From a virus, in IMG/VR virus record IMGVR_UViG_3300045988_167643: DNA of 64,000 nucleotides; one strand, 5' to 3'. The position numbers and the translations under genes are program-made. Positions 4,969 through 21,721 of the stretch are shown here, in pieces. The notes beneath the pieces are model-generated. The model saw only the letters and a list, made by a program, of their open reading frames with translations. It made no database searches and was not told where the DNA came from. Every line of letters begins with the position of its first letter. Within the stretch, counting starts at the first letter, position 1.

Positions 4969-5212
4969 CTCAAAGTATAGTTTTATACCTCTTATTTTAA
5001 GGCACTTCTATGAAATAGACTAAGAGAAATCTACGTTATAAAAAGATAATATGTTATGGTGTCGCTCTAGCTGTAATTATATCGTTTGTACCTAAACATA
5101 CACTGTGCCGAACATGATTGGTGTAAGTGATACAAACATGTAACTTTTTATAACATTGTCGAAGAGCATGACCAATTTTAAATTGAGATTATATTATAAA
5201 GGAAATAAAAAT
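4969..5212 (+). ncRNA. putative tracrRNA / omega-RNA-like scaffold with anti-repeat
   Basis: ORF-free interval between the last repeat and the iscB-like start. 4980-5002 (GTTTTATACCTCTTATTTTAAGG) is complementary to the 3' two-thirds of the + strand repeat. Position and length match omega-RNA/tracrRNA loci. Ends and strand are not determined. Confidence 0.5.
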
Positions 5213-6952
5213 ATGAATTATATGGATTTTGTATTAATTGTGGATAAAAATAGTAAACCATGTATACCAATAAAAAATGGTAAAGCAGGTTATTTATTAA
5301 GAGAACATAAAGCAGAAATTATAAATCACGAGCCATTAGTTATCAAAAGAACTGATGATTATAATTCGGATTTAGAAAATAGAGATATATTTGAATTAAA
5401 AGTAGATAGTGGATATTTAAATATCGGATTTTCTGTAAGCGATAATGAGCATGAATATATTGCAGGTCAAGTTGAAATGCTAAACGGAATGAGTAATAGA
5501 TTGTTAGAAAGAAAATCTATGCGTAGTTTCAGAAGAAATCGTTTACGTTATAGAAAAAATAAGAACATTGATTATAAAACAGTACATAATCCTACTTATA
5601 AAAATGGAAATGAAGATGGATGGTTTGCACCGTCTATTGTACATAAAATGGAAACGCATATCAGAATCATTGAGCAATTAAAACAATGGGTTCCAATCGA
5701 TAAAGTTATTGTAGAGGTGGCAAATTTTGACATTGCTGCAATGGATGCATATTTAAAGGACGGAACTATTTTAAATGGAAAAGATTATCAAAATGGTGAA
5801 ATGAAAGGATATGAGAATGTTGTATCTTATGTAAGAGCCAGAGATAATTATTCTTGTTACTTTTGCAATAAGAAAAAGAAAAAAGATGGTACACTAAAAG
5901 AGAAACCAAAAAGAATAGAAGTGCACCATAAAATACCAAGATCCTGGGGTGGTACTAATAATCCAGGAAATTTGATTTGCGTATGTCAAGGATGTCATCA
6001 GAAAATACATTCGAATAATAATAACAACAAATATTTTAAAGAATTATTAGAACAAGCTTTACAAGAAAATACATTTAAAGATTCTACATATATGAATATT
6101 GTTAGATGGGAATTATTAAACAGACTTACTGAAAAATATCCAGAGCTTGATATTGAAGCTGAATATGGTTATAACACAAAAATTAATAGAAAAGAAGCAG
6201 GTTTGAGAAAATTCCATTATAATGATGCAGTTTGTATAAAAGAATTTAAGAATATAACTTTATCTAAAAAAGTATTTATTGTCGAACAAAAACGTTGTAA
6301 TGATAGAAAAATGGAAAGTTTTGCAGATGCAAAATATATAGATTCAAGAGATGGTAAAAAGAAAAAAGGAAATGATCTAAAAGTAATTAGGCATAGTACT
6401 AAATCAAAACGCTCTACAAATAAAGAACATATTGATAATGAAAGAATCTTTAGAAAAGAGAAAGTATCTAAGGGTAAAATACAATTTGAGTGTCATTCAT
6501 ATTGCGTAAAACCAGGAGATTTAATATACATAAAAGAAGGTAAACATAAAGGGAAAATTGCAGAAGTTTCTACAATACAGATTGTAGGCGAAAAAATTCC
6601 TAATCCGATAATTGATATTAATGAGATAAATAATAAAAAAATTGATTTCAACAGAGAGTTGAAAAAAAGAAAAACAACTTCTAATATGACTGATTATCAA
6701 AAACGTTTTGCAAAATATCAAATTAGATTTACATATAAAGAATCTGATGCAGATGGACCATCTATAACGCTTACGCAAAAAGAATATGAAAAGCTTAAAG
6801 AGAATAAATCAGATAGAGTAAAAATTATTCGTACCAGACGTGGATTAGTTTGGAGAGAGTACGACAGACTTACATATGAAGCCGAAAATATGGATCAGGA
6901 AGAAAAGAAATTAGAAGTAAAAAATAAGAAACAAGAATTAAAAGCTGCATAA
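5213..6952 (+). CDS. iscB: IscB-type RNA-guided nuclease (PLMP-RuvC-bridge helix-HNH-RuvC, no REC lobe), CRISPR-associated
   Basis: 579 aa from ATG 5213 (track ORF opens at TTG 5156). Motifs: PLMP-like DFVLIVDKNSKPCIPIKNGKAGYLL; RuvC-I LKVDSGYLNIGF; bridge helix RSFRRNRLRYRKNK; RuvC-II VIVEVANFD; HNH CYFCNKK...EVHHKIPRSWGGTNNPGNLICVCQGCHQKIH; RuvC-III KFHYNDAVCI. Confidence 0.8.
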   Translation: MNYMDFVLIVDKNSKPCIPIKNGKAGYLLREHKAEIINHEPLVIKRTDDYNSDLENRDIFELKVDSGYLNIGFSVSDNEHEYIAGQVEMLNGMSNRLLERKSMRSFRRNRLRYRKNKNIDYKTVHNPTYKNGNEDGWFAPSIVHKMETHIRIIEQLKQWVPIDKVIVEVANFDIAAMDAYLKDGTILNGKDYQNGEMKGYENVVSYVRARDNYSCYFCNKKKKKDGTLKEKPKRIEVHHKIPRSWGGTNNPGNLICVCQGCHQKIHSNNNNNKYFKELLEQALQENTFKDSTYMNIVRWELLNRLTEKYPELDIEAEYGYNTKINRKEAGLRKFHYNDAVCIKEFKNITLSKKVFIVEQKRCNDRKMESFADAKYIDSRDGKKKKGNDLKVIRHSTKSKRSTNKEHIDNERIFRKEKVSKGKIQFECHSYCVKPGDLIYIKEGKHKGKIAEVSTIQIVGEKIPNPIIDINEINNKKIDFNRELKKRKTTSNMTDYQKRFAKYQIRFTYKESDADGPSITLTQKEYEKLKENKSDRVKIIRTRRGLVWREYDRLTYEAENMDQEEKKLEVKNKKQELKAA

Positions 6953-6961
6953 AAAAAGGAG

Positions 6962-8785
6962 ATGATCATTATAGACTCAGAAGAGAAAAATACTCAACAG
7001 TCCATTCTGCGCAAGCATTTTGAGATGCTATATCCGGATAAACTAAAGGATGATGAATGGATAAGACTGGTACGGATAAATAAAATAAGCAATGAAACTT
7101 TTGTCGATTACATAAAAACTTATGATGAATATTACAATTATATTCAAACTTATAAATGGAATTTTGATTTATATAATCAACTTGCAACAAATATTGGACG
7201 TGATAAAGGAACAGAAAGTCAACAGAGAACAAGAAGAGTTTTGTTCCTGGATTTTGATCAGAAAGATTACGAACGATTATCTGGGGCAAAAGCATTTACA
7301 GGCTTCATAAAAAGTAAAATAAAAAAATTGTTTCTACATGCATGTATAAATTCAGGACATGGGTATCACTATTATATATGTATTGATGAAAAAGCTAATA
7401 ATGCAAAAGAAGTTGTAGAGCTTAATAAAACACTTGCAGATATCTTTAGAGCAGATCTTAAGGCAACATTATCAACGCAAATCGCGCGAATTCCATGCTC
7501 TTTTAATCACAAAACAGAAGATGGAGAATATGACTATCAAGATCCAGGTAAGTGGGAATATGTGAGAGTTGTCAATAATGCATATAAAAATGGACCACAG
7601 TATAGAGCATATCCATTATCTGAAATTAGAAGTTACATATCAGATTATTACAAAAATCTGGATAAAGAGGTAAATATTTTTGCCCTGAAAGAATGGAAAG
7701 AAGCGAAAAGCGGAAAAGAATTTAATTATTTCTGTATTGAGCGTGTTAAACATGAAGGAGCGGTTAAGGGACAGCGTAACTTCTGGCATGGTCGAATTGT
7801 TAAAAGTATGCAGAAACAGGGTTATAGTGAGCAAGAAATTTTTGCGGCATGTAAAGAATATAATGCAGCCTGTATTCCACCAAAATCTGATAGTGTAATT
7901 TTAGATGACACGGCAAGATTTTTGAAAAAGAAATATAACTTAACAGGATGTTATGGCGCTTTTCCAGAAAATGATGAAAGACATTGGTGGGTCGCTATGC
8001 AGTGTGATGAAGCAAAATGTAAGACTTTTAATTGTGGGCTTTGTATAACGGAAATGGATACCGATGAAAAACACAATCCACAAAGGGCTGCTGGAGCAAA
8101 AATAAATAAGAAGATTTTGAAGAATAGTACCATTAGAAAGATGACAGGAAACGATTATTTGGTCATAACTCTTATTGATGTTTATGAAGTATTATACGGA
8201 AGAAAAGGGTTTAGAGTAAGAGATTTAATTGACAAATTAAAATCAAAATATGCTAAGAGAAGATGTATTGGAGATAAAACGTTAAAGCCTCTTTTACTTA
8301 ATTTACAAGAAAAGAAATGGATTCAGATTGTCGAAGATAAAAAGAAACCAGGAGTATTTCTTGATTCCAGACTTGTACTGAACAGAAGATTAAAAGAAAT
8401 CCAGCAAGGCTATATTGAATTTTATTTTAATATAGCGAGAGCATTAATTGATGGTCGAATTGTTGCTAATGAATATTTAGTCTACATTACATTACTAAGA
8501 AATCTTGATAACGGAAGACCTGTTACATATGATGAACTAGCTTACGATTTAGATTTTTCGAGACAAAATGTTGCTAAGTATATTAAAAATTTGGAAGATG
8601 CAGGATGTATTTTTATCAGTAAAGGAACAACCGATAAAGGATTTGAATGTAATAAATATCGTGTAACTAATCCTCAATTATTTGACGAGATTGATAGAAA
8701 GAGAAGAAAAGAATTTGAGAAAGCATCAGTTACTCTTGCAGATGAACAGAGTAATGAGCTTAGTGAAGCAATATTAATAGCGTAG
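6962..8785 (+). CDS. AEP-superfamily primase-polymerase-like replication protein with C-terminal wHTH-like region
   Basis: VLFLDFDQKDY (DxD) and NSGHGYHYYICID (sGxGxH) blocks typical of Prim-Pol/plasmid primases; C-terminal RQNVAKYIKNLEDAGCI HTH-like segment. Confidence 0.5.
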   Translation: MIIIDSEEKNTQQSILRKHFEMLYPDKLKDDEWIRLVRINKISNETFVDYIKTYDEYYNYIQTYKWNFDLYNQLATNIGRDKGTESQQRTRRVLFLDFDQKDYERLSGAKAFTGFIKSKIKKLFLHACINSGHGYHYYICIDEKANNAKEVVELNKTLADIFRADLKATLSTQIARIPCSFNHKTEDGEYDYQDPGKWEYVRVVNNAYKNGPQYRAYPLSEIRSYISDYYKNLDKEVNIFALKEWKEAKSGKEFNYFCIERVKHEGAVKGQRNFWHGRIVKSMQKQGYSEQEIFAACKEYNAACIPPKSDSVILDDTARFLKKKYNLTGCYGAFPENDERHWWVAMQCDEAKCKTFNCGLCITEMDTDEKHNPQRAAGAKINKKILKNSTIRKMTGNDYLVITLIDVYEVLYGRKGFRVRDLIDKLKSKYAKRRCIGDKTLKPLLLNLQEKKWIQIVEDKKKPGVFLDSRLVLNRRLKEIQQGYIEFYFNIARALIDGRIVANEYLVYITLLRNLDNGRPVTYDELAYDLDFSRQNVAKYIKNLEDAGCIFISKGTTDKGFECNKYRVTNPQLFDEIDRKRRKEFEKASVTLADEQSNELSEAILIA

Positions 8786-10894: not shown

Positions 10895-11500
10895 ATGATG
10901 AACAATTTTTTAAACGGTATGTTTGGTAAAGTAGGTAACGGAATGTGCAGACTTTCTATGAGTGGCGGTATTGCAGTAAAAACATCTAATGGTTATAAAA
11001 GTTATAATGTGAAGACTGGTAGACTTACAAATTGTGACAATTTTGCATTTGATATTGGACAGGATTTCTTCTTTATTATTCCAACAAACAAAGTTAGTGC
11101 AGGTGATATTATATTTGCAAATGGAAAGCCTAAATGTGTTATTAAAGTAGAGAAGAATATGATTACTGCAATCAATTATGAAGATTCTACTGTAGAGAAT
11201 ATTATTCCAGAGCGACACGTATTCATGGGAAATACATATTTTTATGGAAAGATTGTTTCTTTACTTGGAAGTAATATTACTAAGGGAAAAAACGGAATGA
11301 ACAATATTTTCAAATATATGATGCTATCTCAGATGATGAATGGAAATGGTTCTACCGGAACAGCGAACAATATAAACTCAATGCTTCCGTTTATGATGAT
11401 GGGCGGTAATATGGGTGATATGTTTGATGGTATGTTTGATTTTGATGAAGTAGACGATACTAATGAATTTAATGAAGTAGATACAGAGGAGGAAGAATAA
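10895..11500 (+). CDS. hypothetical protein, Met/Gly-rich, acidic C-terminus
   Basis: 201 aa; AAAGGAGAAAAG RBS; same frame as the downstream vWA ORF. Confidence 0.55.
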   Translation: MMNNFLNGMFGKVGNGMCRLSMSGGIAVKTSNGYKSYNVKTGRLTNCDNFAFDIGQDFFFIIPTNKVSAGDIIFANGKPKCVIKVEKNMITAINYEDSTVENIIPERHVFMGNTYFYGKIVSLLGSNITKGKNGMNNIFKYMMLSQMMNGNGSTGTANNINSMLPFMMMGGNMGDMFDGMFDFDEVDDTNEFNEVDTEEEE

Positions 11501-11611
11501 TTATGGGATGGGGGAGAATGGAATGCAAATAGTTTTATAAGATATTCAACATCAAAGGGATTAGCGACAGATTCATTAGGGTTTGTTACTTCAAGTGTTT
11601 CTAATCAGGAA

Positions 11612-12406
11612 ATGTTTAAGGCAAGATCTCTTGATCCAGTACTTGATCCAAAGAATGTTATTAGAGAATGTTGCGATTCAGAAGATCATCCAAACACATT
11701 ACCAGTTGTGATTGCACTTGATGTAACTGGATCTATGGGGCAAGCTGCAGTTGAGGTAGCAAAAAAACTTAATGGAATTATGACAAAACTTTATGAAAAA
11801 ATTGCAGATGTTGAATTTATGATTATGGGCATTGGAGATTTATCATATGATTATAATCCAATTCAAGCATCTCAATTTGAATCAGATATAAGGATTGCAG
11901 AGCAACTTGATAAAATTTACTTTGAATTTGGCGGTGGTGGAAATGGATTTGAGTCATATAGTGCTGCATGGTATTTTGGAACTCATCATAGTAAACTTGA
12001 TTGCTGGAATCGTGGTAAACGAGGAATTATTATTACAATCGGTGACGAGAGATTGAATCCTTATCTTCCAATCCGAAGTAGATGTTCTGGTTTAATTGCA
12101 ACACTTGGAGATAATTTAGAAAAAGATGTGGAAACTCCAGAGCTATTTGAAGAAGCTTCTAAGAAATTCGACATTTATCATATTCATGTAAATCATGGTA
12201 GTAACTATGACAAAGAAGGTATTGAAAAATCCTTTAAGTCTATTATTGAAGAAAATCATTTCAAAGAAGCGACTTTAGACAATATTGCAGAGACTATTGT
12301 AAATATTATTGTTGATGCAGCTGAGAACGATGTTAATACAATTATAACACCTGCGACAACACCTACTCAGGTAAGTACAAATGAGAATGGTGAAATTGTT
12401 TGGTAA
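11612..12406 (+). CDS. von Willebrand factor A (vWA) domain protein
   Basis: MIDAS-like VVIALDVTGSMG. Coordinates start at the first in-frame ATG; the true start may be ATG 11503 via a frameshift in a G5 run (see findings). Confidence 0.65.
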   Translation: MFKARSLDPVLDPKNVIRECCDSEDHPNTLPVVIALDVTGSMGQAAVEVAKKLNGIMTKLYEKIADVEFMIMGIGDLSYDYNPIQASQFESDIRIAEQLDKIYFEFGGGGNGFESYSAAWYFGTHHSKLDCWNRGKRGIIITIGDERLNPYLPIRSRCSGLIATLGDNLEKDVETPELFEEASKKFDIYHIHVNHGSNYDKEGIEKSFKSIIEENHFKEATLDNIAETIVNIIVDAAENDVNTIITPATTPTQVSTNENGEIVW

Positions 12407-12428
12407 AATAAAATAGGAGATAAAAACG

Positions 12429-13526
12429 ATGAAAGACATTAAGATTGTGGCTGGAGCAAACTGGGGAGACGAAGGAAAAGGACTAATGACTGATTACTTT
12501 TCACAGAAACCTAATAGTATTGTAGTATGTTCTAATGGTGGAAGTCAAAGAGGACATACTGTGGTAACACCGGACGGAATCAGACATGTCTTTCATCATT
12601 TTGGTTCTGGAACTTTTAATGGTGCTGCTACATATTTACCAAAAGAATTTATTGTAAATCCACTTATTTTTGCTCAAGAATATAAAGAACTGATAAATAA
12701 GAGAATTATTCCTAATATTTATGTTCATGGAGATTGTATGGTTTCGACTCCGTATGATATGATGGCAAACCAGGTCATCGAAGAGAGTCGTGGAAAACAA
12801 AAGCATGGTAGTTGTGGATTTGGAATTTTTGAAACCATTAAGAGATATAAAAATGGTATAACCGATTTTGATAAAGCAAAGGACTATTATCTTGAAAAAT
12901 TTGAACGAGATAAAATTCTACTATCAGACGACTGGAAAAGAATATTTAATGATCCAGGAATAAATGATCATTTTATAGAAGATTTGGATTTTATGAATGA
13001 TCACATTAAATCAATTAGAGATGAAAGCTTTCTAAATATGTTTGACCATATTATTTTTGAAGCTGCTCAAGGACTACTACTCGATCAGAATAATCTAAAA
13101 TATTTCCCATATCTTACACCATCTAATACAGGTCTGAAAAATCCTAAAAAAATTATTGAAAGAATTGATTGGTATGATGAATTAAATATAGAAGTATGTT
13201 ATGTGACACGTACATATTTAACGAGACATGGTGTCGGTCCGTTTCCAACAGAGTGTGATAAAGACGAAATTAATTCTGAAATGCACGATAATACAAATGT
13301 ACCTAATCCTCATCAGGATACTTTACGTTACGGAAAGTTAGATTTAAATGAGTTATATCAAAGAGTGATGGAAGATGTTGGAAATTTTAAATGTAAAAAA
13401 TCTATTGCCATTACACACTGTAATGAATTTAGAATGGATGAAGATAAGTTTGAGAAGTTATTTTTAGGATGGAATATTTATAAATCAGATGGTGAAACAC
13501 ATAATAGCATAAAGGAGACAAAATAA
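12429..13526 (+). CDS. adenylosuccinate synthetase (PurA)-family enzyme, divergent, PurZ-like candidate
   Basis: Blocks AGANWGDEGKGLMTDY, NGGSQRGHTV, FEAAQGLLLDQ, YLTPSNT and TRHGVGPFPTE align with PurA signature blocks. 365 aa, shorter than bacterial PurA. The TTGRxRR Asp-binding loop is not recognisable. Confidence 0.65.
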   Translation: MKDIKIVAGANWGDEGKGLMTDYFSQKPNSIVVCSNGGSQRGHTVVTPDGIRHVFHHFGSGTFNGAATYLPKEFIVNPLIFAQEYKELINKRIIPNIYVHGDCMVSTPYDMMANQVIEESRGKQKHGSCGFGIFETIKRYKNGITDFDKAKDYYLEKFERDKILLSDDWKRIFNDPGINDHFIEDLDFMNDHIKSIRDESFLNMFDHIIFEAAQGLLLDQNNLKYFPYLTPSNTGLKNPKKIIERIDWYDELNIEVCYVTRTYLTRHGVGPFPTECDKDEINSEMHDNTNVPNPHQDTLRYGKLDLNELYQRVMEDVGNFKCKKSIAITHCNEFRMDEDKFEKLFLGWNIYKSDGETHNSIKETK

Positions 13527-13528
13527 AA

Positions 13529-14092
13529 ATGAAAACCAAAAATTCAACCTGGAAAGTAGTATTAATCGTAATTGCAATTATTATTGCTGTCGCTCTTATG
13601 GCTGTATTTGGAGTCCAGAGTTACATGAATAGGGCAATCAGTATGGAAGAACAGGTATCAACCGCTAAGTCGGATGTAAATGTCCAGGAAAAAAGACGAG
13701 TGGATCTACTTGGAAATTTGGTTGATTGCGTAAAGAACTATGACAAACATGAATATGACACATTAAATGAAATTGTAGACGGTCGCTCATCTAATGATGA
13801 TAAGGCTGCAGAAATCAAAACTTCTATTAAGGCAGTATCTGAAGCATATCCGGAATTAAAATCCAACGAGAATTATAAACAGCTTATGAATGATCTGGCA
13901 ACAACCGAAAATCTGATTGCAAACTATAGGGAAAATTATAATAAACAGGTGAAAATTTATAATGCGTATGTGAGAAAATTTCCGCAGAGACTATTTCTTA
14001 ATTTCTTAGGTTACGAAGAACAGGATTATAAATTGTTAGACTTTGGTGACGACCTTCAGGACGCACCACAGGATTTGTTTGGAGAGGATTAA
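13529..14092 (+). CDS. lemA: LemA family protein
   Basis: N-terminal TM, then EKRRVDLLGNLVDCVKNYDKHE, SEAYPELKSNENYKQL, TENLIANYRENYN and FPQRLF blocks typical of LemA. Confidence 0.75.
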   Translation: MKTKNSTWKVVLIVIAIIIAVALMAVFGVQSYMNRAISMEEQVSTAKSDVNVQEKRRVDLLGNLVDCVKNYDKHEYDTLNEIVDGRSSNDDKAAEIKTSIKAVSEAYPELKSNENYKQLMNDLATTENLIANYRENYNKQVKIYNAYVRKFPQRLFLNFLGYEEQDYKLLDFGDDLQDAPQDLFGED

Positions 14093-14095
14093 TTT

Positions 14096-14410
14096 ATGAA
14101 AAAGAAGCAAAAATGTGATAGGCATTTTTATGTGGCACTTGGTTGTGGTAAATATTATGCAGTAATAGAAGAAAATGATTGTCATAAAATTTACATAATT
14201 TTACCTTGCATATGTGAAAAATGTAAAGATTTTGAATTTGGATCTTTGAATCCAAGCATATTTCCTCACACACAAGAAGGCTACGAAAATTACAAAAATG
14301 CGATTCAAGTTCTTAAGGATTGTAAGTATAAACCATTTGAAGAATTTGAAAAGGAATGCCCTGAATATTACGAAAAAATTGTAGATAAATTGAGGATTGA
14401 AAATGAATAA
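14096..14410 (+). CDS. hypothetical Cys-rich protein
   Basis: 104-aa ORF. Confidence 0.5.
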   Translation: MKKKQKCDRHFYVALGCGKYYAVIEENDCHKIYIILPCICEKCKDFEFGSLNPSIFPHTQEGYENYKNAIQVLKDCKYKPFEEFEKECPEYYEKIVDKLRIENE

Positions 14411-15143
14411 CATAAAGTTTCGGAACTTTACGATTACTAAAAGAGAAATTCTTGTAAGTATTGTAATCGCAGCCTTAATGATTATGTTTGGCTTTCTGAT
14501 CAGCACAAAATGGTCAGAGAGCCAACAGGAATCTGATATTAAATATAACAAGGCAATTCAAATAGATAATGATACAGATCTGTTCCAATATGGAATGGAT
14601 ACAAATGTTGGTAATGCATTTGTTTATGGGGAGCTGAAAGCAGTAGATTCAGTTACATATCCGGAAATTGGTGGAGAATACATGTATGTTCGAAAAGTAG
14701 AAGAACATTATAATATGCATACTCGAACTGTTACGACTACTGACTCAAAAGGGAAAAAACATACAAGAACAGAAACATATTGGACCTGGGATTATGCCGG
14801 AGAAGAAGATAAAAGTTGTAAAACAATTAATTTTTGTGGAATTGATTTTGATAGCAGTAAAATTCCATTTCCTGGTAAAGACTACATTGATACATTGAGT
14901 GGCGGTTATCATATCAGATTTGAATATTACGGTGTTCCTGCAGTTAATAAAGGGACTATATTTACGGATCTAAGGGGAAAAACCATAAATAATACAAAGT
15001 ACTATAACAATATGGATTTAGAAGAAGCTTTTAGATATGCTACAACTCATTTTCCAATGTGGTTATTTTGGGTACTATGGATTATGTTGATAGGAGCTGC
15101 CGTGTTCGGGTTTTGTTATTTAGAAAATAAATGGTTGGAGTAA
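14403..15143 (+). CDS. membrane protein (N- and C-terminal TM) downstream of LemA
   Basis: ATG 14403 inside track ORF 14397-15143; TM segments ILVSIVIAALMIMFGFLI and MWLFWVLWIMLIGAAVFGF. Confidence 0.55.
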   Translation: MNNIKFRNFTITKREILVSIVIAALMIMFGFLISTKWSESQQESDIKYNKAIQIDNDTDLFQYGMDTNVGNAFVYGELKAVDSVTYPEIGGEYMYVRKVEEHYNMHTRTVTTTDSKGKKHTRTETYWTWDYAGEEDKSCKTINFCGIDFDSSKIPFPGKDYIDTLSGGYHIRFEYYGVPAVNKGTIFTDLRGKTINNTKYYNNMDLEEAFRYATTHFPMWLFWVLWIMLIGAAVFGFCYLENKWLE

Positions 15144-15148
15144 AAAAT

Positions 15149-15499
15149 ATGGATAAAATTAATAACTTAGAATATAGAGGATTCCATGCAAAGCTTAATC
15201 ACGATTTAAATCAAGAAAAGATAACAGGATGTATTGCTGACATTGAGGATCTAGTAACATTTGAAGCCGAGCATAGCAGTGATATTGAGTTCGAATTTCA
15301 CAAAGCAGTAGATGATTACATGGCATTTTGTAAAGAAATTGGCAAAAAGAGAATTAAAAATTGTCCTGGTATTGCAATACAGTGTCGTGGAAAAATTGTA
15401 ATGGCAGAACCACATCCGAGGTTTAAAGGAGCTTGGAGATTTGAACTAAATGGTGAAACTTGGGTTTGTAGTAGTTGGGCGTTTGAAGAGGGTTATTGA
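15149..15499 (+). CDS. HicB-like antitoxin-fold domain protein
   Basis: YRGFHAKLNHD...ITGCIADIEDLVTFEAEHSSDIEFEFHKAVDDYMAFCKEIGKK matches the HicB N-terminal pattern (from memory); no HicA seen. Confidence 0.45.
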   Translation: MDKINNLEYRGFHAKLNHDLNQEKITGCIADIEDLVTFEAEHSSDIEFEFHKAVDDYMAFCKEIGKKRIKNCPGIAIQCRGKIVMAEPHPRFKGAWRFELNGETWVCSSWAFEEGY

Positions 15500-19522: not shown

Positions 19523-21721
19523 ATGAGAACTTTATTATTATTTCGTGGTGCACCAGGAGTTGGTAAGAGCACTTATATTGAGAAAAATGGTTTAAAGCCA
19601 TATACATTATGTGCAGATGATATTCGTTTACTTTGTCAGAGTCCGGTATTATCTGTAAATGGTAGTACAGAAATTACACAGAATAATGATGGCACTGTTT
19701 GGAAAACGTTATTTACTCTACTAGAGGTTAGAATGCAGCGTGGAGAATTTACAGTTATAGATGCAACTAATTCCAAGACTTCTGAAATGAACAAATATAA
19801 GAAATTATGTCAGGAATATAGGTACAGAATTTTTCTTGTTGATTTTACAGATGTTTCAATCGAGGAATGTAAGAAAAGAAATAGTCTTCGTGCCGCAATG
19901 AAACAGGTTCCTGAAGCTGTTATTGATAAGATGTACAGTAGATTTAAAACACAGGGGATTCCATCCGGTATTACAGTAATTAAGCCGGAAGAACTTGATA
20001 AAGTGTTTATGAAAAAAATTGATTTGTCCGAATATAAAGCGATTCATCACGTAGGAGATATACATGGTTGTAATACAGCTTTACAGAAATATTTGAACGC
20101 AATTAGCGGAATCAAGGACGATCACTTCTTTATATTTTGCGGAGACTATATTGATAGAGGAATTGAAAATGCGGAAGTGGTTCAGTTTCTCTTAAGCATT
20201 AAGGACAAACCAAACGTACTTTTGCTTGAGGGCAATCACGAAATTCATCTAAGAAAATATAGTGAAGATAAGAAGTCATTCTCAAAAGAATTTGAATTAT
20301 TTACAAAACCTGCATTAGATAAAGCCGGTTTTAGTAAGAAAGATCTGCGGCAGCTGTGTAGAAAATTTGCTCAGTGTGCCTATTATACATATCATGGAAA
20401 TACATATCTTGTTACTCACGGTGGTCTGAATACAATCCCACAAAATCTTACTTTTGTTGCAACCGATCAAATGATTCATGGAGTTGGTAGATATAATGAT
20501 GTAGAGCAAGTTGCTGATACATTTTTCACCACTACCGATGATCATACTTATCAGATTTTTGGTCATAGAAATACTAAAGGATTTGACATTAATGTTAATC
20601 CAAGAGTATACGATCTTGAAGGACAGGTTGAGTTTGGTGGCTGTCTGAGATGTATTGATATCGTTCCTGGTGGAAGTATAACCTATGAGGTTAAGAACAA
20701 TGTATTCAGAGAGCCAGAAAAATCAGCAAGAACTATGAGTAATAATGTATCTGATGCACTTATTGAACTGAGACATAATAAATATGTCACTGAAAAACAA
20801 TTTGGAAATATTTCTTCTTTCAACTTTAGTCCAACAGCTTTTCAAAAAAATATATGGGACGAGCAGACAACTAAGGCAAGAGGTTTGTTCTTAGATACTG
20901 AAAAATTTAAAGTTGTGGCAAGGTCCTACGACAAATTTTTCAATATAAATCAGCGTGAAGAAACTAAACTTGATGCTCTGCAGCGTACATTAGAGTTTCC
21001 AGTAGCTGCCTATGTTAAAGAAAATGGATTTCTTGGAATTGTTTCCTGGAATGAGTATACAGATGATTTGTTTATTACAAGTAAATCTGATCCTGAAGGA
21101 CCATTTTCCGAATGGCTAAGAGATATGGTTTATACGAAAATTTCTAAAGAGAATCTTGAGAAGATGAAGAAGTATATTGAAGAGAACGATGTTTCTTTTG
21201 TATTTGAGTGCTGCGACATGGAGCATGATCCACATATTATTGATTATCCAGAAAGTAAGTTGGTTTTGCTTGATATTGTATACAATACTTTGGATTTCCA
21301 GAAATATAACTATGAGGATATGGCTCATGTTGGTCGTGATCTTGGGCTAACAATCAAGAAACAGGCTTATGAGTTATCTACATGGCAGGAATTTTATGAT
21401 TGGTATTTTGAAGTTTTAGAAGAAGATTATGAATACAGAGGTGATAAGATCGAAGGATTTGTAATCGAAGATGCTAATGGATATATGGTTAAGCTGAAAC
21501 TTACATATTATAACTTCTGGAAGTTTATGCGTGGTATTGCTCATGAGACTTTAAAGAAAGGTTGTACAAACAGGACATCATTGTTGACTACGCCGGTAGC
21601 GAATGAATTTTACGCTTGGTGCAAGAAACAGTTTGAAAATGGTAAAGCTGATGAGCTGCCAAGAGATATTGTTACTTTAAGAAAAATGTTTTATGAGGAG
21701 AAAGAGAATAATGTGGATTAG
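19523..21721 (+). CDS. trifunctional RNA repair enzyme: polynucleotide kinase / metallophosphatase / RNA ligase-like (bacterial Pnkp architecture)
   Basis: P-loop LFRGAPGVGKST. Calcineurin-type blocks HHVGDIHGC, GDYIDRG, EGNHE, THGG and GHRN. Ligase motif I VKENGFLG (KxNG) and motifs IV/V EGFVIED...VKLK. Confidence 0.7.
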   Translation: MRTLLLFRGAPGVGKSTYIEKNGLKPYTLCADDIRLLCQSPVLSVNGSTEITQNNDGTVWKTLFTLLEVRMQRGEFTVIDATNSKTSEMNKYKKLCQEYRYRIFLVDFTDVSIEECKKRNSLRAAMKQVPEAVIDKMYSRFKTQGIPSGITVIKPEELDKVFMKKIDLSEYKAIHHVGDIHGCNTALQKYLNAISGIKDDHFFIFCGDYIDRGIENAEVVQFLLSIKDKPNVLLLEGNHEIHLRKYSEDKKSFSKEFELFTKPALDKAGFSKKDLRQLCRKFAQCAYYTYHGNTYLVTHGGLNTIPQNLTFVATDQMIHGVGRYNDVEQVADTFFTTTDDHTYQIFGHRNTKGFDINVNPRVYDLEGQVEFGGCLRCIDIVPGGSITYEVKNNVFREPEKSARTMSNNVSDALIELRHNKYVTEKQFGNISSFNFSPTAFQKNIWDEQTTKARGLFLDTEKFKVVARSYDKFFNINQREETKLDALQRTLEFPVAAYVKENGFLGIVSWNEYTDDLFITSKSDPEGPFSEWLRDMVYTKISKENLEKMKKYIEENDVSFVFECCDMEHDPHIIDYPESKLVLLDIVYNTLDFQKYNYEDMAHVGRDLGLTIKKQAYELSTWQEFYDWYFEVLEEDYEYRGDKIEGFVIEDANGYMVKLKLTYYNFWKFMRGIAHETLKKGCTNRTSLLTTPVANEFYAWCKKQFENGKADELPRDIVTLRKMFYEEKENNVD

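What the first reader, a model, noticed from the sequence alone, without database searches (positions are those of the whole stretch)
12429..13526. Divergent short PurA-family enzyme: possible PurZ-type (2-aminoadenine genome) or other nucleotide-modifying activity
The 365-aa protein keeps PurA signature blocks: GDEGKG P-loop, GGxxxGHT, FEAAQG..LD, PSNT and GVGPFPTE. It is about 65 aa shorter than bacterial PurA. The loop that binds aspartate/IMP phosphate in PurA (TTGRxRR) is replaced by NVPNPHQDTLRYGKLD.

Short phage-encoded PurA homologues include PurZ. PurZ converts dGMP to the precursor of dZTP, so phage DNA carries 2-aminoadenine instead of adenine and evades restriction. Some Z-genome phages replicate with a PrimPol, and a PrimPol-like gene is present at 6962.

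Arguing against a simple PurZ call, I see no obvious DatZ-like (HD dATPase) or MazZ-like gene in this window. An N6/N4 methyltransferase is also present.
Basis: partly seen in the sequence, partly recalled or inferred. Interest (0 to 1): 0.65.

Follow-up and report, generated by a model that had tools for sequence, protein, structure and literature searches.

The report
Phage PurA-like enzyme with vWA partner
This phage gene is not the PurZ enzyme that makes 2-aminoadenine DNA; it belongs to a large, unstudied branch of the adenylosuccinate-synthetase family that has lost its aspartate-binding pocket and is always encoded next to a metal-binding vWA protein, so it probably makes a different, still unknown, modified purine nucleotide.

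Summary

The PurZ interpretation fails on several tests:
- The protein keeps Asp13 (GDEGKG), whereas PurZ and PurZ0 have Ser.
- It scores 39 bits against the PurZ model (cutoff 300).
- It falls in a separate clade with 100% bootstrap support.
- The window has no DatZ, MazZ or DpoZ homologue.

It is not a canonical PurA either. The catalytic residues Asp13, Lys16, His41 and Gln224 are kept. The aspartate pocket (Val273, Thr300, Thr301, Arg303-305) is replaced clade-wide by conserved TRHG and TNxPNxxQ motifs. The GTP-base motif TKLD becomes THx(N/D)E.

The main new result is a partner gene. The gene directly upstream encodes a vWA protein with an intact metal-binding (MIDAS) site. This pairing is essentially obligate:
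- 79 of 80 viral loci.
- 46 of 46 testable bacterial loci, against 0 of 32 canonical purA loci.
- Matching record counts in GenBank phages.

Bacterial copies often add a J-domain/pseudokinase gene and an NrtR-type regulator. Phage copies often add a Met-rich protein instead.

I found no published description. The function is inferred: probably ligation of a 6-oxopurine nucleotide to an amine other than aspartate.

The parts
12429..13526 (+). PurA-like enzyme gene (365 aa), a member of the vWA-coupled PurA-like clade
   Evidence: ORF. PF00709 E=1.5e-37. PHROG 1211 E=1.9e-69. Clade placement with 100% bootstrap. AlphaFold2 model with pLDDT 74 matches only PurA/PurZ folds.
12465..12482 (+). P-loop GDEGKG. 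It keeps the equivalents of catalytic Asp13 and Lys16.
   Evidence: PurZ and PurZ0 have GS(T/E)(G/A)KG here. GD[EA]GKG is present in 143 of 146 representative clade members. Gly, Asp, Gly, Lys and Gly are invariant among the close relatives, with only the residue after Asp varying.
12537..12560 (+). GGSQRGHT. The His41 equivalent is kept; the Asn38 equivalent is Gln, as in most of the clade.
   Evidence: GGxQxGHT is present in 241 of 265 full-length members.
13221..13232 (+). TRHG. The Val273 equivalent is replaced by a conserved His.
   Evidence: TRH[GC] is present in 259 of 265 members and TRVG in 0 of 265.
13296..13343 (+). Remodelled 'aspartate loop' NVPNPHQDTLRYGKLD. It replaces the PurA sequence GATTGRRRRTGWLD.
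   Evidence: Asn290, Asn293, Gln296 and Arg300 are invariant or nearly so in a 17-sequence alignment with 30-70% identity to the window protein. TTGR or TT.T is present in 0 of 265 members.
13413..13427 (+). THCNE. It replaces the guanine-specificity motif TKLD (Lys331, Asp333).
   Evidence: The residue at the Asp333 position is Asn in 160 family members and Asp in 62.
11503..12406 (+). vWA/MIDAS partner gene (about 300 aa in relatives). In the window its ATG at 11503 is out of frame, and the intact ORF starts at 11612 (264 aa).
   Evidence: PHROG 2971 E=4.8e-65. AlphaFold2 model plus Foldseek: integrin I-domain, TRAP and NorD vWA folds at probability 1.0. MIDAS residues D-x-T-x-S...T...D are conserved in 48-51 of 51 sequences. 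Homologues lie directly upstream of the PurA-like gene in Vibrio, Rhizobium and Mycobacterium phages.
11510..11514 (+). Run of 5 G where four close relatives have 4 G. This frameshifts the vWA gene near its start.
   Evidence: alignment with L011-L014. (translations).
10895..11500 (+). Third module gene (201 aa): an N-terminal beta-rich domain, a Met/Gly/Asn-rich region and an acidic tail.
   Evidence: Present and adjacent in 78 of 80 IMG/VR loci. hhalign against the Vibrio/Rhizobium-phage gene at the same position gives probability 91.4%, E=8.9e-7. No Pfam or PHROG match.
12415..12419 (+). Shine-Dalgarno AGGAG in front of the PurA-like ATG. The spacer after the vWA stop codon is 22 nt.
   Evidence: No terminator-like sites between 10500 and 15300, consistent with co-transcription.

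Best explanation
The gene encodes a member of a distinct, uncharacterised branch of the adenylosuccinate-synthetase (PurA) superfamily that works together with the vWA/MIDAS protein encoded directly upstream.

Shown:
- It is neither PurZ/PurZ0 nor canonical PurA.
- It retains the residues that in PurA transfer the NTP gamma-phosphate onto O6 of IMP: Asp13, Lys16, His41 and Gln224. It also keeps the P-loop and, probably, the 5'-phosphate contacts.
- The pocket that binds L-aspartate, and the loop that closes over it, are replaced by a different set of residues that is equally conserved (His, Asn, Asn, Gln).
- The guanine-recognition motif is changed.
- The vWA gene is an essentially obligate neighbour across very distant phages and bacteria.

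Inferred:
- The enzyme still activates a 6-oxopurine nucleotide that lacks a 2-amino group (IMP- or dIMP-like) as a 6-phosphoryl intermediate.
- It then displaces the phosphate with an amine other than free L-aspartate, giving an N6-substituted (or simply aminated) adenine nucleotide.
- The vWA protein, through its metal site, binds or presents a partner or substrate, or regulates the enzyme.
- In bacteria the cassette often has a J-domain/pseudokinase gene and an NrtR-type (ADP-ribose-sensing family) regulator gene as neighbours, which points to a role in virus-host conflict or stress rather than housekeeping purine synthesis.
For: Family and exclusion:
- PF00709 matches at E=1.5e-37, but every PurA equivalog model and the PurZ model score far below cutoff: 106 vs 402 bits and 39 vs 300 bits.
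- A neighbour-joining tree of 30 sequences with 200 bootstraps gives this clade 100%, PurZ+PurZ0 100% and canonical PurA 79%.

Motifs:
- Catalytic motifs are retained and the Asp pocket and GTP motif are remodelled.
- At family level, 0 of 265 full-length members have TTGR/TT.T or TRVG, 259 of 265 have TRH[GC], and 262 of 265 have TN..N..Q.
- The new loop residues are among only 29 invariant columns of a diverse alignment.
- Literature: Arg303 contacts both O2' of IMP and the aspartate, and the PurZ TTVT loop tip contacts aspartate.
- Phages that carry a canonical PurA keep all the PurA motifs: MT835471 and LR756503.

Partner:
- The upstream protein is homologous across gut, Vibrio, Rhizobium and Mycobacterium phages, E=1e-40 to 1e-53, and has a vWA fold.
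- It is present in 79 of 80 IMG/VR loci and directly adjacent in 73.
- It is present in 46 of 48 clade-type genomic loci (the other two have no upstream DNA) and in 0 of 32 canonical purA loci.
- GenBank phage record counts match: 201 Mycobacterium, 10 Rhizobium, 6 Vibrio, 1 Mycolicibacterium.
- It is the only other gene shared by all four distant neighbourhoods.

Wider cassette:
- A J-domain/kinase-like gene occurs in 28 loci and an NrtR-type NUDIX plus winged-helix gene in 24 loci.
- The flanking genes sampled in four cultured-bacterium loci are unrelated cellular genes.
Against: - No biochemical data exist for any member, so the substrate assignments are inference from sequence.
- The active-site loops of the AlphaFold2 model have pLDDT below 50, so I could not verify in three dimensions that the new conserved residues line the pocket.
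- A divergent loop could still bind aspartate in another way, or the vWA metal site could supply carboxylate binding in trans.
- The window and the viral loci lack the NrtR and J-domain genes, apart from the J-domain gene in mycobacteriophage. The conflict-system inference therefore comes from bacterial relatives.
- In this window the vWA gene carries a frameshift near its start.
- PADLOC has no model matching any module protein. This is neutral, but it gives no support for a defence role.
Confidence: 0.55

Rival explanations
1. PurZ-type enzyme: converts dGMP + Asp to the dZMP precursor, so that the phage genome carries 2-aminoadenine.
For: It is a short phage-encoded PurA homologue, and PHROG 1211 carries a PurZ-like label. 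The guanine-specificity motif is altered, as it is in ATP-using PurZ.
Against: - Asp13 is kept, whereas all 147 phage PurZ/PurZ0 sequences in the published survey have Ser.
- The PurZ model scores 39 bits against a cutoff of 300.
- The clades are separate, each with 100% bootstrap.
- The aspartate loop that PurZ needs is lost.
- No DatZ, MazZ or DpoZ homologue was found in the window.
- PurZ phages and phages carrying this clade fall in different phage groups.
Confidence: 0.02
2. Ordinary adenylosuccinate synthetase used as an auxiliary metabolic gene: IMP + Asp + GTP gives adenylosuccinate, boosting dATP supply for an AT-rich genome. The loop is simply divergent, and the vWA protein is a regulator or is unrelated.
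For: The catalytic core is conserved. The nearest solved structures are bacterial PurAs. The window is about 30% G+C. Databases annotate relatives as adenylosuccinate synthase.
Against: - All residues known to bind aspartate (Val273, Thr300, Thr301, Arg303-305) are replaced, and the replacements are themselves invariant across deep divergence.
- Scores are 4-fold or more below every PurA equivalog cutoff.
- Phages that do carry a canonical PurA keep all the motifs.
- The obligate vWA partner is absent from all 32 canonical purA loci.
- Bacteria carrying the cassette have it as an isolated island next to a regulator gene, not within purine operons.
Confidence: 0.15
3. Counter-defence re-amination: the enzyme converts IMP or dIMP (or related inosine nucleotides) directly back to adenine nucleotides, using ammonia or another small neutral amine. 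This would undo adenosine-deaminase-based immunity such as RADAR or Kongming.
For: - The pocket changes from Arg-rich to neutral polar residues (His/Asn/Asn/Gln), which would suit a small uncharged nucleophile.
- From my own knowledge, E. coli PurA accepts hydroxylamine in place of aspartate.
- Loss of Arg303, which reads the 2'-OH of IMP, would permit deoxy substrates.
- Deaminase-based defences that make dIMP and dITP exist.
Against: The only documented anti-Kongming factor is the Dmp nucleotidase. Nothing here explains the need for a vWA partner. The same cassette also sits in bacterial chromosomes next to a regulator gene. There is no direct evidence.
Confidence: 0.1
4. Catalytically inactive PurA-like scaffold or nucleotide sensor that functions only through binding, for example to the vWA protein.
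For: The substrate pockets are remodelled. The partner proteins are chaperone-like: vWA, J-domain and a pseudokinase.
Against: Asp13, Lys16, His41, Gln224 and the P-loop are invariant or nearly so across sequences only 30% identical. That pattern is typical of an active enzyme.
Confidence: 0.03

Closest known systems
Canonical adenylosuccinate synthetase PurA (EC 6.3.4.4; E. coli PurA, PDB 1ADE/1CG0; B. anthracis 4M0G)
   Same: Same fold and Pfam family. It shares the P-loop GDEGKG, the His41 motif GHT, Gln224 in FExxQG, the T239-region motif PSNT, GxGPFPTE, and a likely dimer-interface Arg.
   Different: - Val273 becomes His.
- The Asp loop ATTGRRRR becomes TNxPNxxQ(D/G)x(L/I)R.
- Asn38 becomes Gln.
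- T128/T129/R131 (TTGR) becomes S(C/T)Gx.
- TKLD becomes THx(N/D)E.
- It is 67 aa shorter than E. coli PurA.
- It falls below all equivalog cutoffs.
- It has an obligate vWA neighbour, which canonical purA loci lack.
PurZ / PurZ0 (2-aminoadenine pathway; phiVC8 6FM1, S-2L 7ODX, PurZ0 7VF6)
   Same: A phage-encoded, shortened PurA homologue with an altered NTP-base pocket.
   Different: PurZ has Ser in place of Asp13 and keeps the aspartate loop TTVT..RR. It is linked to datZ, mazZ and dpoZ, or to dutZ and dmtZ. This protein has none of these features and forms a separate clade.
P-loop NTPase + vWA pairs (MoxR-vWA type, e.g. NorQ/NorD, CbbQ/CbbO, BchI/BchD), and vWA 'peptide-binding chaperones' in conflict systems
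   Same: A nucleotide-using P-loop protein is encoded next to a MIDAS-containing vWA protein. NorD is among the structural matches to the partner. vWA proteins have been described as Mg-dependent peptide binders in NrtR-regulated conflict systems.
   Different: The NTPase here is a PurA-type ligase, not an AAA+ remodeller. I found no description of a PurA-vWA pairing.
NrtR-regulated operons (Nudix-related transcriptional regulators that sense ADP-ribose)
   Same: A NUDIX + NrtR winged-helix gene lies next to the bacterial cassette, often divergently transcribed.
   Different: Known NrtR regulons are NAD-synthesis or salvage genes, or ADP-ribose-processing conflict systems. None is reported with a PurA-like enzyme. 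The window phage has no NrtR gene.

Membership tests
PurZ / PurZ0 | Ser replaces the catalytic Asp13 of PurA (GSxxKG) | tested here: not met
   The window has GDEGKG. Reference PurZ and PurZ0 sequences have GSTGKG or GSEAKG. The criterion comes from PMC12884076.
PurZ / PurZ0 | Scores above the curated PurZ model cutoff and clusters with PurZ in a tree | tested here: not met
   NF038379 scores 39 bits against a cutoff of 300. The clades are separate with 100% bootstrap each. PDB PurZ chains match only at E~0.06-0.17.
PurZ / PurZ0 | Aspartate loop retained (TTVT..RR), because the reaction uses L-Asp | tested here: not met
   The loop is NVPNPHQDTLRY.
PurZ / PurZ0 | Genomic linkage to datZ and mazZ/DUF550 (or dutZ/dmtZ) and to dpoZ | tested here: not met
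   Sensitive phmmer searches with DatZ, MazZ and DpoZ against all six-frame ORFs of the window found nothing below E=0.1. No HD, MazG or DNA_pol_A Pfam domain was found. Only 64 kb of a genome of roughly 150-210 kb was visible.
PurZ / PurZ0 | 2-aminoadenine replaces adenine in virion DNA | not testable with these tools
   This needs nucleoside LC-MS or restriction assays.
Canonical PurA (adenylosuccinate synthetase) | PF00709 fold with catalytic Asp13, Lys16, His41 and Gln224 | tested here: met
Canonical PurA (adenylosuccinate synthetase) | L-aspartate pocket: Val273, Thr300, Thr301, Arg303, Arg304, Arg305 | tested here: not met
   TRVG becomes TRHG, and ATTGRRRR becomes PNPHQDTL. TTGR or TRVG is present in 0 of 265 family members.
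Canonical PurA (adenylosuccinate synthetase) | Guanine-specificity elements (T/N)KxD and S414-T-G-P | tested here: not met
   The window has THCNE and SDGET.
Canonical PurA (adenylosuccinate synthetase) | Reaches the NCBIfam/TIGRFAM equivalog cutoff | tested here: not met
   The best score is 105.8 bits against a cutoff of 402.
Canonical PurA (adenylosuccinate synthetase) | Forms adenylosuccinate from IMP + Asp + GTP | not testable with these tools
   This needs an enzyme assay or complementation test.
vWA-coupled PurA-like clade (defined in this work) | Signature motifs GGxQxGHT, TRHG, TNxxNxxQ and THx(N/D)E | tested here: met
   All four are present in the window protein.
vWA-coupled PurA-like clade (defined in this work) | MIDAS-containing vWA gene immediately upstream on the same strand | tested here: met
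   Window 11503-12406; the local vWA profile scores E=1.8e-152. The gene carries a 1-nt G-run frameshift near its start.
vWA-coupled PurA-like clade (defined in this work) | Falls inside the clade in a phylogeny | tested here: met
   100% bootstrap.

The most novel reading that the evidence does not exclude
The PurA-like enzyme and its vWA partner are the core of an undescribed nucleotide-amine ligase system shared by phages and bacteria.

The proposed mechanism has two steps. The enzyme phosphorylates O6 of an IMP- or dIMP-type nucleotide. It then couples C6 to a non-aspartate amine. That amine could be a small molecule, giving a new N6-modified adenine nucleotide that acts as a signal, an antimetabolite or a DNA-modification precursor. 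Alternatively it could be the amino group of a peptide or protein held on the vWA metal site, giving a new nucleotide-protein linkage.

In bacteria the cassette would be switched on by an NrtR-type ADP-ribose sensor, which would make it a new virus-host conflict module.
Probability: 0.3. Interest if true: 0.85.

Novelty: new variant of a known kind. Interest (0 to 1): 0.62.

Why it matters
Phage PurA homologues are currently sorted into 'PurZ' (Z-genomes) or 'just PurA'. This analysis shows a third, very abundant class. It has thousands of sequences, occurs in the Mycobacterium, Rhizobium and large Vibrio phage groups of GenBank in numbers matching the vWA partner, is common in human-gut phages, and is found in diverse bacteria. 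Its second-substrate pocket has been rebuilt and it never occurs without a vWA/MIDAS partner. If the enzyme uses a new amine substrate, it would define a new branch of purine-nucleotide chemistry, in the same way PurZ did. It may also point to a new conflict system. Practically, the result warns against calling Z-genomes, or 'adenylosuccinate synthase' auxiliary genes, from PF00709 hits alone. It also supplies simple discriminating motifs: GS vs GD, TTxT/TTGR vs TNxxNxxQ, and TRVG vs TRHG. Cultured members exist (Bxz1/Catera-type mycobacteriophages, Vibrio phage Va1), so the question can be tested directly.

Tried and rejected
1. PurZ hypothesis: rejected, as set out above.

2. LemA (13529-14092) and the membrane protein at 14397-15143 as module members: rejected. 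LemA is present in only 20 of 80 related loci, and usually about 5 kb away.

3. Domain fusions that might reveal function: Pfam found only PF00709 in six long representatives.

4. Known defence-system components: PADLOC has no hit for the PurA-like, vWA or third proteins. Only the mycobacteriophage kinase-like protein hits kinase models.

5. Sequence search of the vWA partner against the PDB: nothing significant. The fold was recognised only through the AlphaFold2 model plus Foldseek.

6. Homology between the Met-rich third protein and the J-domain/kinase-like protein: none (hhalign probability below 1%).

7. Structural mapping of the new pocket residues: not possible.

8. The first tree attempt with Biopython bootstrapping timed out. 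I redid it with numpy.

9. Literature: ten searches found no functional study of this clade or of a PurA-vWA pairing. The mentions I read are genome-announcement annotations, or group these proteins as 'other PurA homologs'.

10. Promoter and terminator scan around the module: promoter-like sites were below the chance expectation and there were no terminators, so no separate regulation is evident.
Full report
**Observation.** Window 12429-13526 (+) is an ATG-initiated ORF of 365 aa. It is preceded by an AGGAG ribosome-binding site at 12415-12419. Pfam PF00709 (adenylosuccinate synthetase) matches at E=1.5e-37, but only over profile positions 1-307 of 416. E. coli PurA is 432 aa.

**Is it PurZ? 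No.**
- A published survey reports that Asp13 is conserved in 99% of its E. coli-type PurA group, and that this residue is Ser in all 147 phage PurZ/PurZ0 sequences (PMC12884076).
- I fetched PurZ from phiVC8, S-2L and JeffCo, and PurZ0 from HunterDalle and Ghobes. They read GS(T/E)(G/A)KG, whereas the window protein reads GDEGKG.
- The NCBIfam PurZ model scores 39 bits against a cutoff of 300.
- Solved PurZ chains match at E~0.06-0.17, against 3e-21 for B. anthracis PurA.
- PurZ keeps the aspartate-contacting loop tip TTVT..RR. The window protein does not.
- phmmer at maximum sensitivity with DatZ (two versions), MazZ, DpoZ and the S-2L PrimPol found nothing below E=0.1 in any six-frame ORF of the window.
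- A Pfam survey of 44 ORFs between 0 and 37 kb found no HD, MazG, DNA_pol_A or NUDIX domain.
- tblastn with S-2L PurZ finds 201 GenBank phage records, mainly Arthrobacter, 40-kb Vibrio phages, Microbacterium and Acinetobacter. These phage groups differ from those carrying relatives of the window protein, which are Mycobacterium 201, Rhizobium 10 and large Vibrio phages 6.

**Is it an ordinary PurA? Also no.**
- All five PurA equivalog models score 54-106 bits against cutoffs of 368-700.
- I verified the E. coli literature numbering on the real sequence and aligned 30 sequences.
- Retained: D13 and K16 (GDEGKG), H41 (GHT), Q224 (FExxQG), the T239 region (PSNT), GxGPFPTE, and an Arg at the position of the dimer-interface R143.
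- Changed throughout the clade: N38 to Q (GGxQxGHT); T128/T129/R131 to S(C/T)Gx; V273 to H (TRHG); A299-R306 (ATTGRRRR) to (P/x)Nxx Q(D/G)x(L/I/M)(R/K); T330-D333 (TKLD) to THx(N/D); S414-P417 (STGP) to SDGE-like.
- In 265 full-length family members, none has TTGR/TT.T or TRVG, 259 have TRH[GC] and 262 have TN..N..Q.
- In a 17-sequence alignment with 30-70% identity to the window protein, N290, Q296, H267 and R266 are among only 29 invariant columns. The new pocket is therefore under strong constraint and is not decaying.
- The literature states that R303 contacts both O2' of IMP and the free aspartate, and that the equivalent PurZ loop tip contacts aspartate (PMC8342488).
- Two phage-derived records, MT835471 and the 735-kb LR756503, encode PurAs that keep every canonical motif. 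Phages that need PurA activity evidently retain it.

**Phylogeny.** I built a neighbour-joining tree of 30 sequences over 378 trimmed columns, with Kimura-corrected distances and 200 bootstraps. It separates three groups: PurZ+PurZ0 (100%), canonical PurA (79%), and the clade containing the window protein together with the Vibrio, Rhizobium and Mycobacterium phage proteins (100%). The family is large. There are 5,730 hits at E<=1e-5 in the 90%-identity clustered database. Among 50%-identity representatives, 8,189 match at E<=1e-3 and 2,613 at E<=1e-30. The AlphaFold2 model has mean pLDDT 74 and pTM 0.78, with the active-site loops below 50. It matches only PurA/PurZ folds.

**The partner gene.** In every related contig, a gene of about 292-300 aa lies directly upstream.
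- It is homologous to the 'hypothetical' gene directly upstream of the PurA-like gene in Vibrio phage phiKT1024 (E=1e-53), Rhizobium phage RHph_TM3_3_6 (E=7e-46) and Mycobacterium phage Sebata gp261 (E=1e-40).
- In an all-against-all comparison of five neighbourhoods, this gene and the PurA-like gene are the only genes shared by all.
- Its AlphaFold2 model (pTM 0.76) matches integrin I-domains, TRAP, Mfa5 and NorD vWA domains at probability 1.0.
- NCBI names one member 'VWA domain-containing protein'.
- The MIDAS residues D-x-T-x-S...T...D are conserved in 48-51 of 51 diverse members.

**Co-occurrence tests.**
- In 80 IMG/VR loci the vWA gene is present in 79 and directly adjacent in 73. Six more have a 0.8-1.1 kb insertion between the two genes.
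- In GenBank phages the vWA protein occurs in 220 records: Mycobacterium 201, Rhizobium 10, Vibrio 6, Mycolicibacterium 1, plus two uncultured. These are the same counts as for the PurA-like clade, and the coordinates are paired in every record that appears in both listings.
- In a scan of one genome per bacterial or archaeal species, 48 loci carry a clade-type gene. Of these, 46 have the vWA gene just upstream, and the other two start at a contig edge. All 32 canonical purA loci returned by the same scan lack it.

**Wider architecture.**
- In gut phages, including the window, a third gene (window 10895-11500) precedes the vWA gene in 78 of 80 loci. It has an N-terminal beta-rich domain and a Met/Gly/Asn-rich tail. 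It is homologous to the gene at the same position in the Vibrio and Rhizobium phages (hhalign probability 91.4%, E=8.9e-7).
- In 28 loci (27 bacterial loci plus mycobacteriophage Sebata gp260), the gene before vWA instead encodes a J-domain fused to a kinase-like domain (DnaJ E down to 1e-8; Pkinase E=1.7e-9 in Sebata). Its consensus lacks the HRD and DFG aspartates, so it is probably a pseudokinase.
- In 24 bacterial or metagenome-assembled loci a NUDIX + NrtR winged-helix regulator gene lies next to the cassette, often divergently transcribed.
- The flanking genes I sampled in Massilia, Methylobacterium, Hungatella and Oryzifoliimicrobium are unrelated cellular genes: an ABC ATPase, a fatty-acid hydroxylase, a beta-lactamase, a two-component system and a carboxyltransferase. 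In these bacteria the cassette is therefore a compact island rather than part of a prophage.
- NrtR-type factors sense ADP-ribose and regulate conflict systems, in which vWA proteins act as Mg-dependent peptide binders (PMC9503650).
- The window and the viral loci lack NrtR homologues. J-domain/kinase-like homologues are also absent from them, except for Sebata gp260.

**Window context.**
- The window is about 30% G+C, has positive GC skew throughout, and carries nearly all its ORFs on the + strand.
- It encodes C5 and N6/N4 DNA methylases, an Rnl1-type RNA ligase, a Pnkp-like protein, Clp protease, YopX, tRNA nucleotidyltransferase and a tail fibre protein.
- Contigs carrying close relatives are about 90-215 kb.
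- A copy of the three-gene module sits in a prophage-like region of Mediterraneibacter sp. NSJ-55. This suggests a Lachnospiraceae host.
- There are no terminator-like sites between 10.5 and 15.3 kb.
- The window's vWA gene has GGGGG at 11510-11514 where four close relatives have GGGG. This puts its conserved ATG (11503) out of frame. It may be an assembly error or a real variant.

**Mechanism (inferred).** The conserved phosphotransfer machinery argues that the enzyme still forms a 6-phosphoryl intermediate on a 6-oxopurine nucleotide. Retention of Asp13 argues that the substrate lacks a 2-amino group. Loss of R303, which reads the 2'-OH of IMP, leaves both ribo and deoxy substrates possible. 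The rebuilt, uncharged pocket argues for a nucleophile other than free L-aspartate. The altered base motif (His in place of Lys331, and Asn or Asp at the 333 position) leaves the phosphate donor uncertain. The role of the vWA partner is not established. It could present a substrate, regulate the enzyme or assemble a complex.

**Literature.** No paper in the searchable library describes this clade's function or the PurA-vWA pairing.

**Verdict.** The 'other nucleotide-modifying activity' alternative is supported by a clade-wide remodelled pocket and an obligate vWA partner. This is a new variant of a known enzyme kind. It is of moderately high interest, and its function remains to be determined experimentally.

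Noticed in passing
window 11510-11514: The vWA partner gene has a run of 5 G where four close relatives (L011-L014) have 4 G. This puts the conserved start codon (ATG 11503, protein MGWGEW...) out of frame and leaves a 264-aa ORF starting at 11612. It is either a homopolymer assembly error or a real frameshift or phase-type variant.
   Followed up: partly
window 10895-11500: A 201-aa protein with Met/Gly/Asn-rich low-complexity regions and an acidic C-terminal tail (…DFDEVDDTNEFNEVDTEEEE). Its Vibrio and Rhizobium phage counterparts have even longer 'MMMMGG'-type tails. It has no Pfam or PHROG match. The acidic tail could in principle be a ligand for the vWA metal site.
   Followed up: partly
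window 19523-21721, and ORFs in 38-64 kb: An RNA-repair toolkit: a 732-aa protein combining AAA_33 kinase, Metallophos and T4 Rnl1-type ligase domains, plus tRNA nucleotidyltransferase(s). Related contigs also carry Thg1-like, PTH2 and RNA-ligase genes. This suggests a counter-measure against tRNA-cleaving defences.
   Followed up: no
window 13529-14092 and 14397-15143: A LemA-family protein (PHROG 1383) and a two-TM-ended membrane protein (PHROG 3886) lie just downstream of the PurA-like gene. In most relatives LemA lies about 5 kb upstream instead (with a 250-aa gene beside it in L008 and L010), or is absent. It therefore appears to be movable and not part of the PurA-like module.
   Followed up: partly
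window 5156-6952: A 598-aa RRXRR + HNH endonuclease with a KOW-like segment. A similar gene is present in L013, but it is replaced by a different 600-aa gene in L011 and L012. This behaviour is consistent with a mobile homing endonuclease.
   Followed up: no
window 15131-15499: A HicB-like antitoxin homologue (PHROG 9151, E=3e-17). I did not identify an obvious adjacent HicA.
   Followed up: no
IMG/VR loci L018, L025-L027, L032, L072; GenBank mycobacteriophages such as Quasimodo and Sauce: Some relatives have a 0.8-1.1 kb insertion between the vWA and PurA-like genes. Some cluster C mycobacteriophages have an annotated HNH endonuclease at the vWA locus, and the vWA match there covers only residues 1-209. 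These look like homing-endonuclease or intein-type invasions of the module.
   Followed up: no
L134, L136, L141 (Oscillospiraceae, Ruminococcaceae and Saccharofermentans metagenome-assembled genomes): These loci have two tandem vWA-like genes upstream of the PurA-like gene instead of one.
   Followed up: no
L099 (MT835471, human faecal phage) and L098 (LR756503, 735-kb uncultured phage): These phage-derived records encode fully canonical PurA proteins (424 and 399 aa) that keep the GDEGKG, GGNNAGH(T/S), TTGRPRR and (T/N)KxD motifs. Phage PurA homologues therefore fall into three classes: canonical, PurZ/PurZ0 and vWA-coupled.
   Followed up: partly
whole window: G+C is about 30% up to roughly 42 kb and rises to about 37% between 42 and 48 kb. 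GC skew is positive throughout and nearly all ORFs are on the + strand.
   Followed up: no
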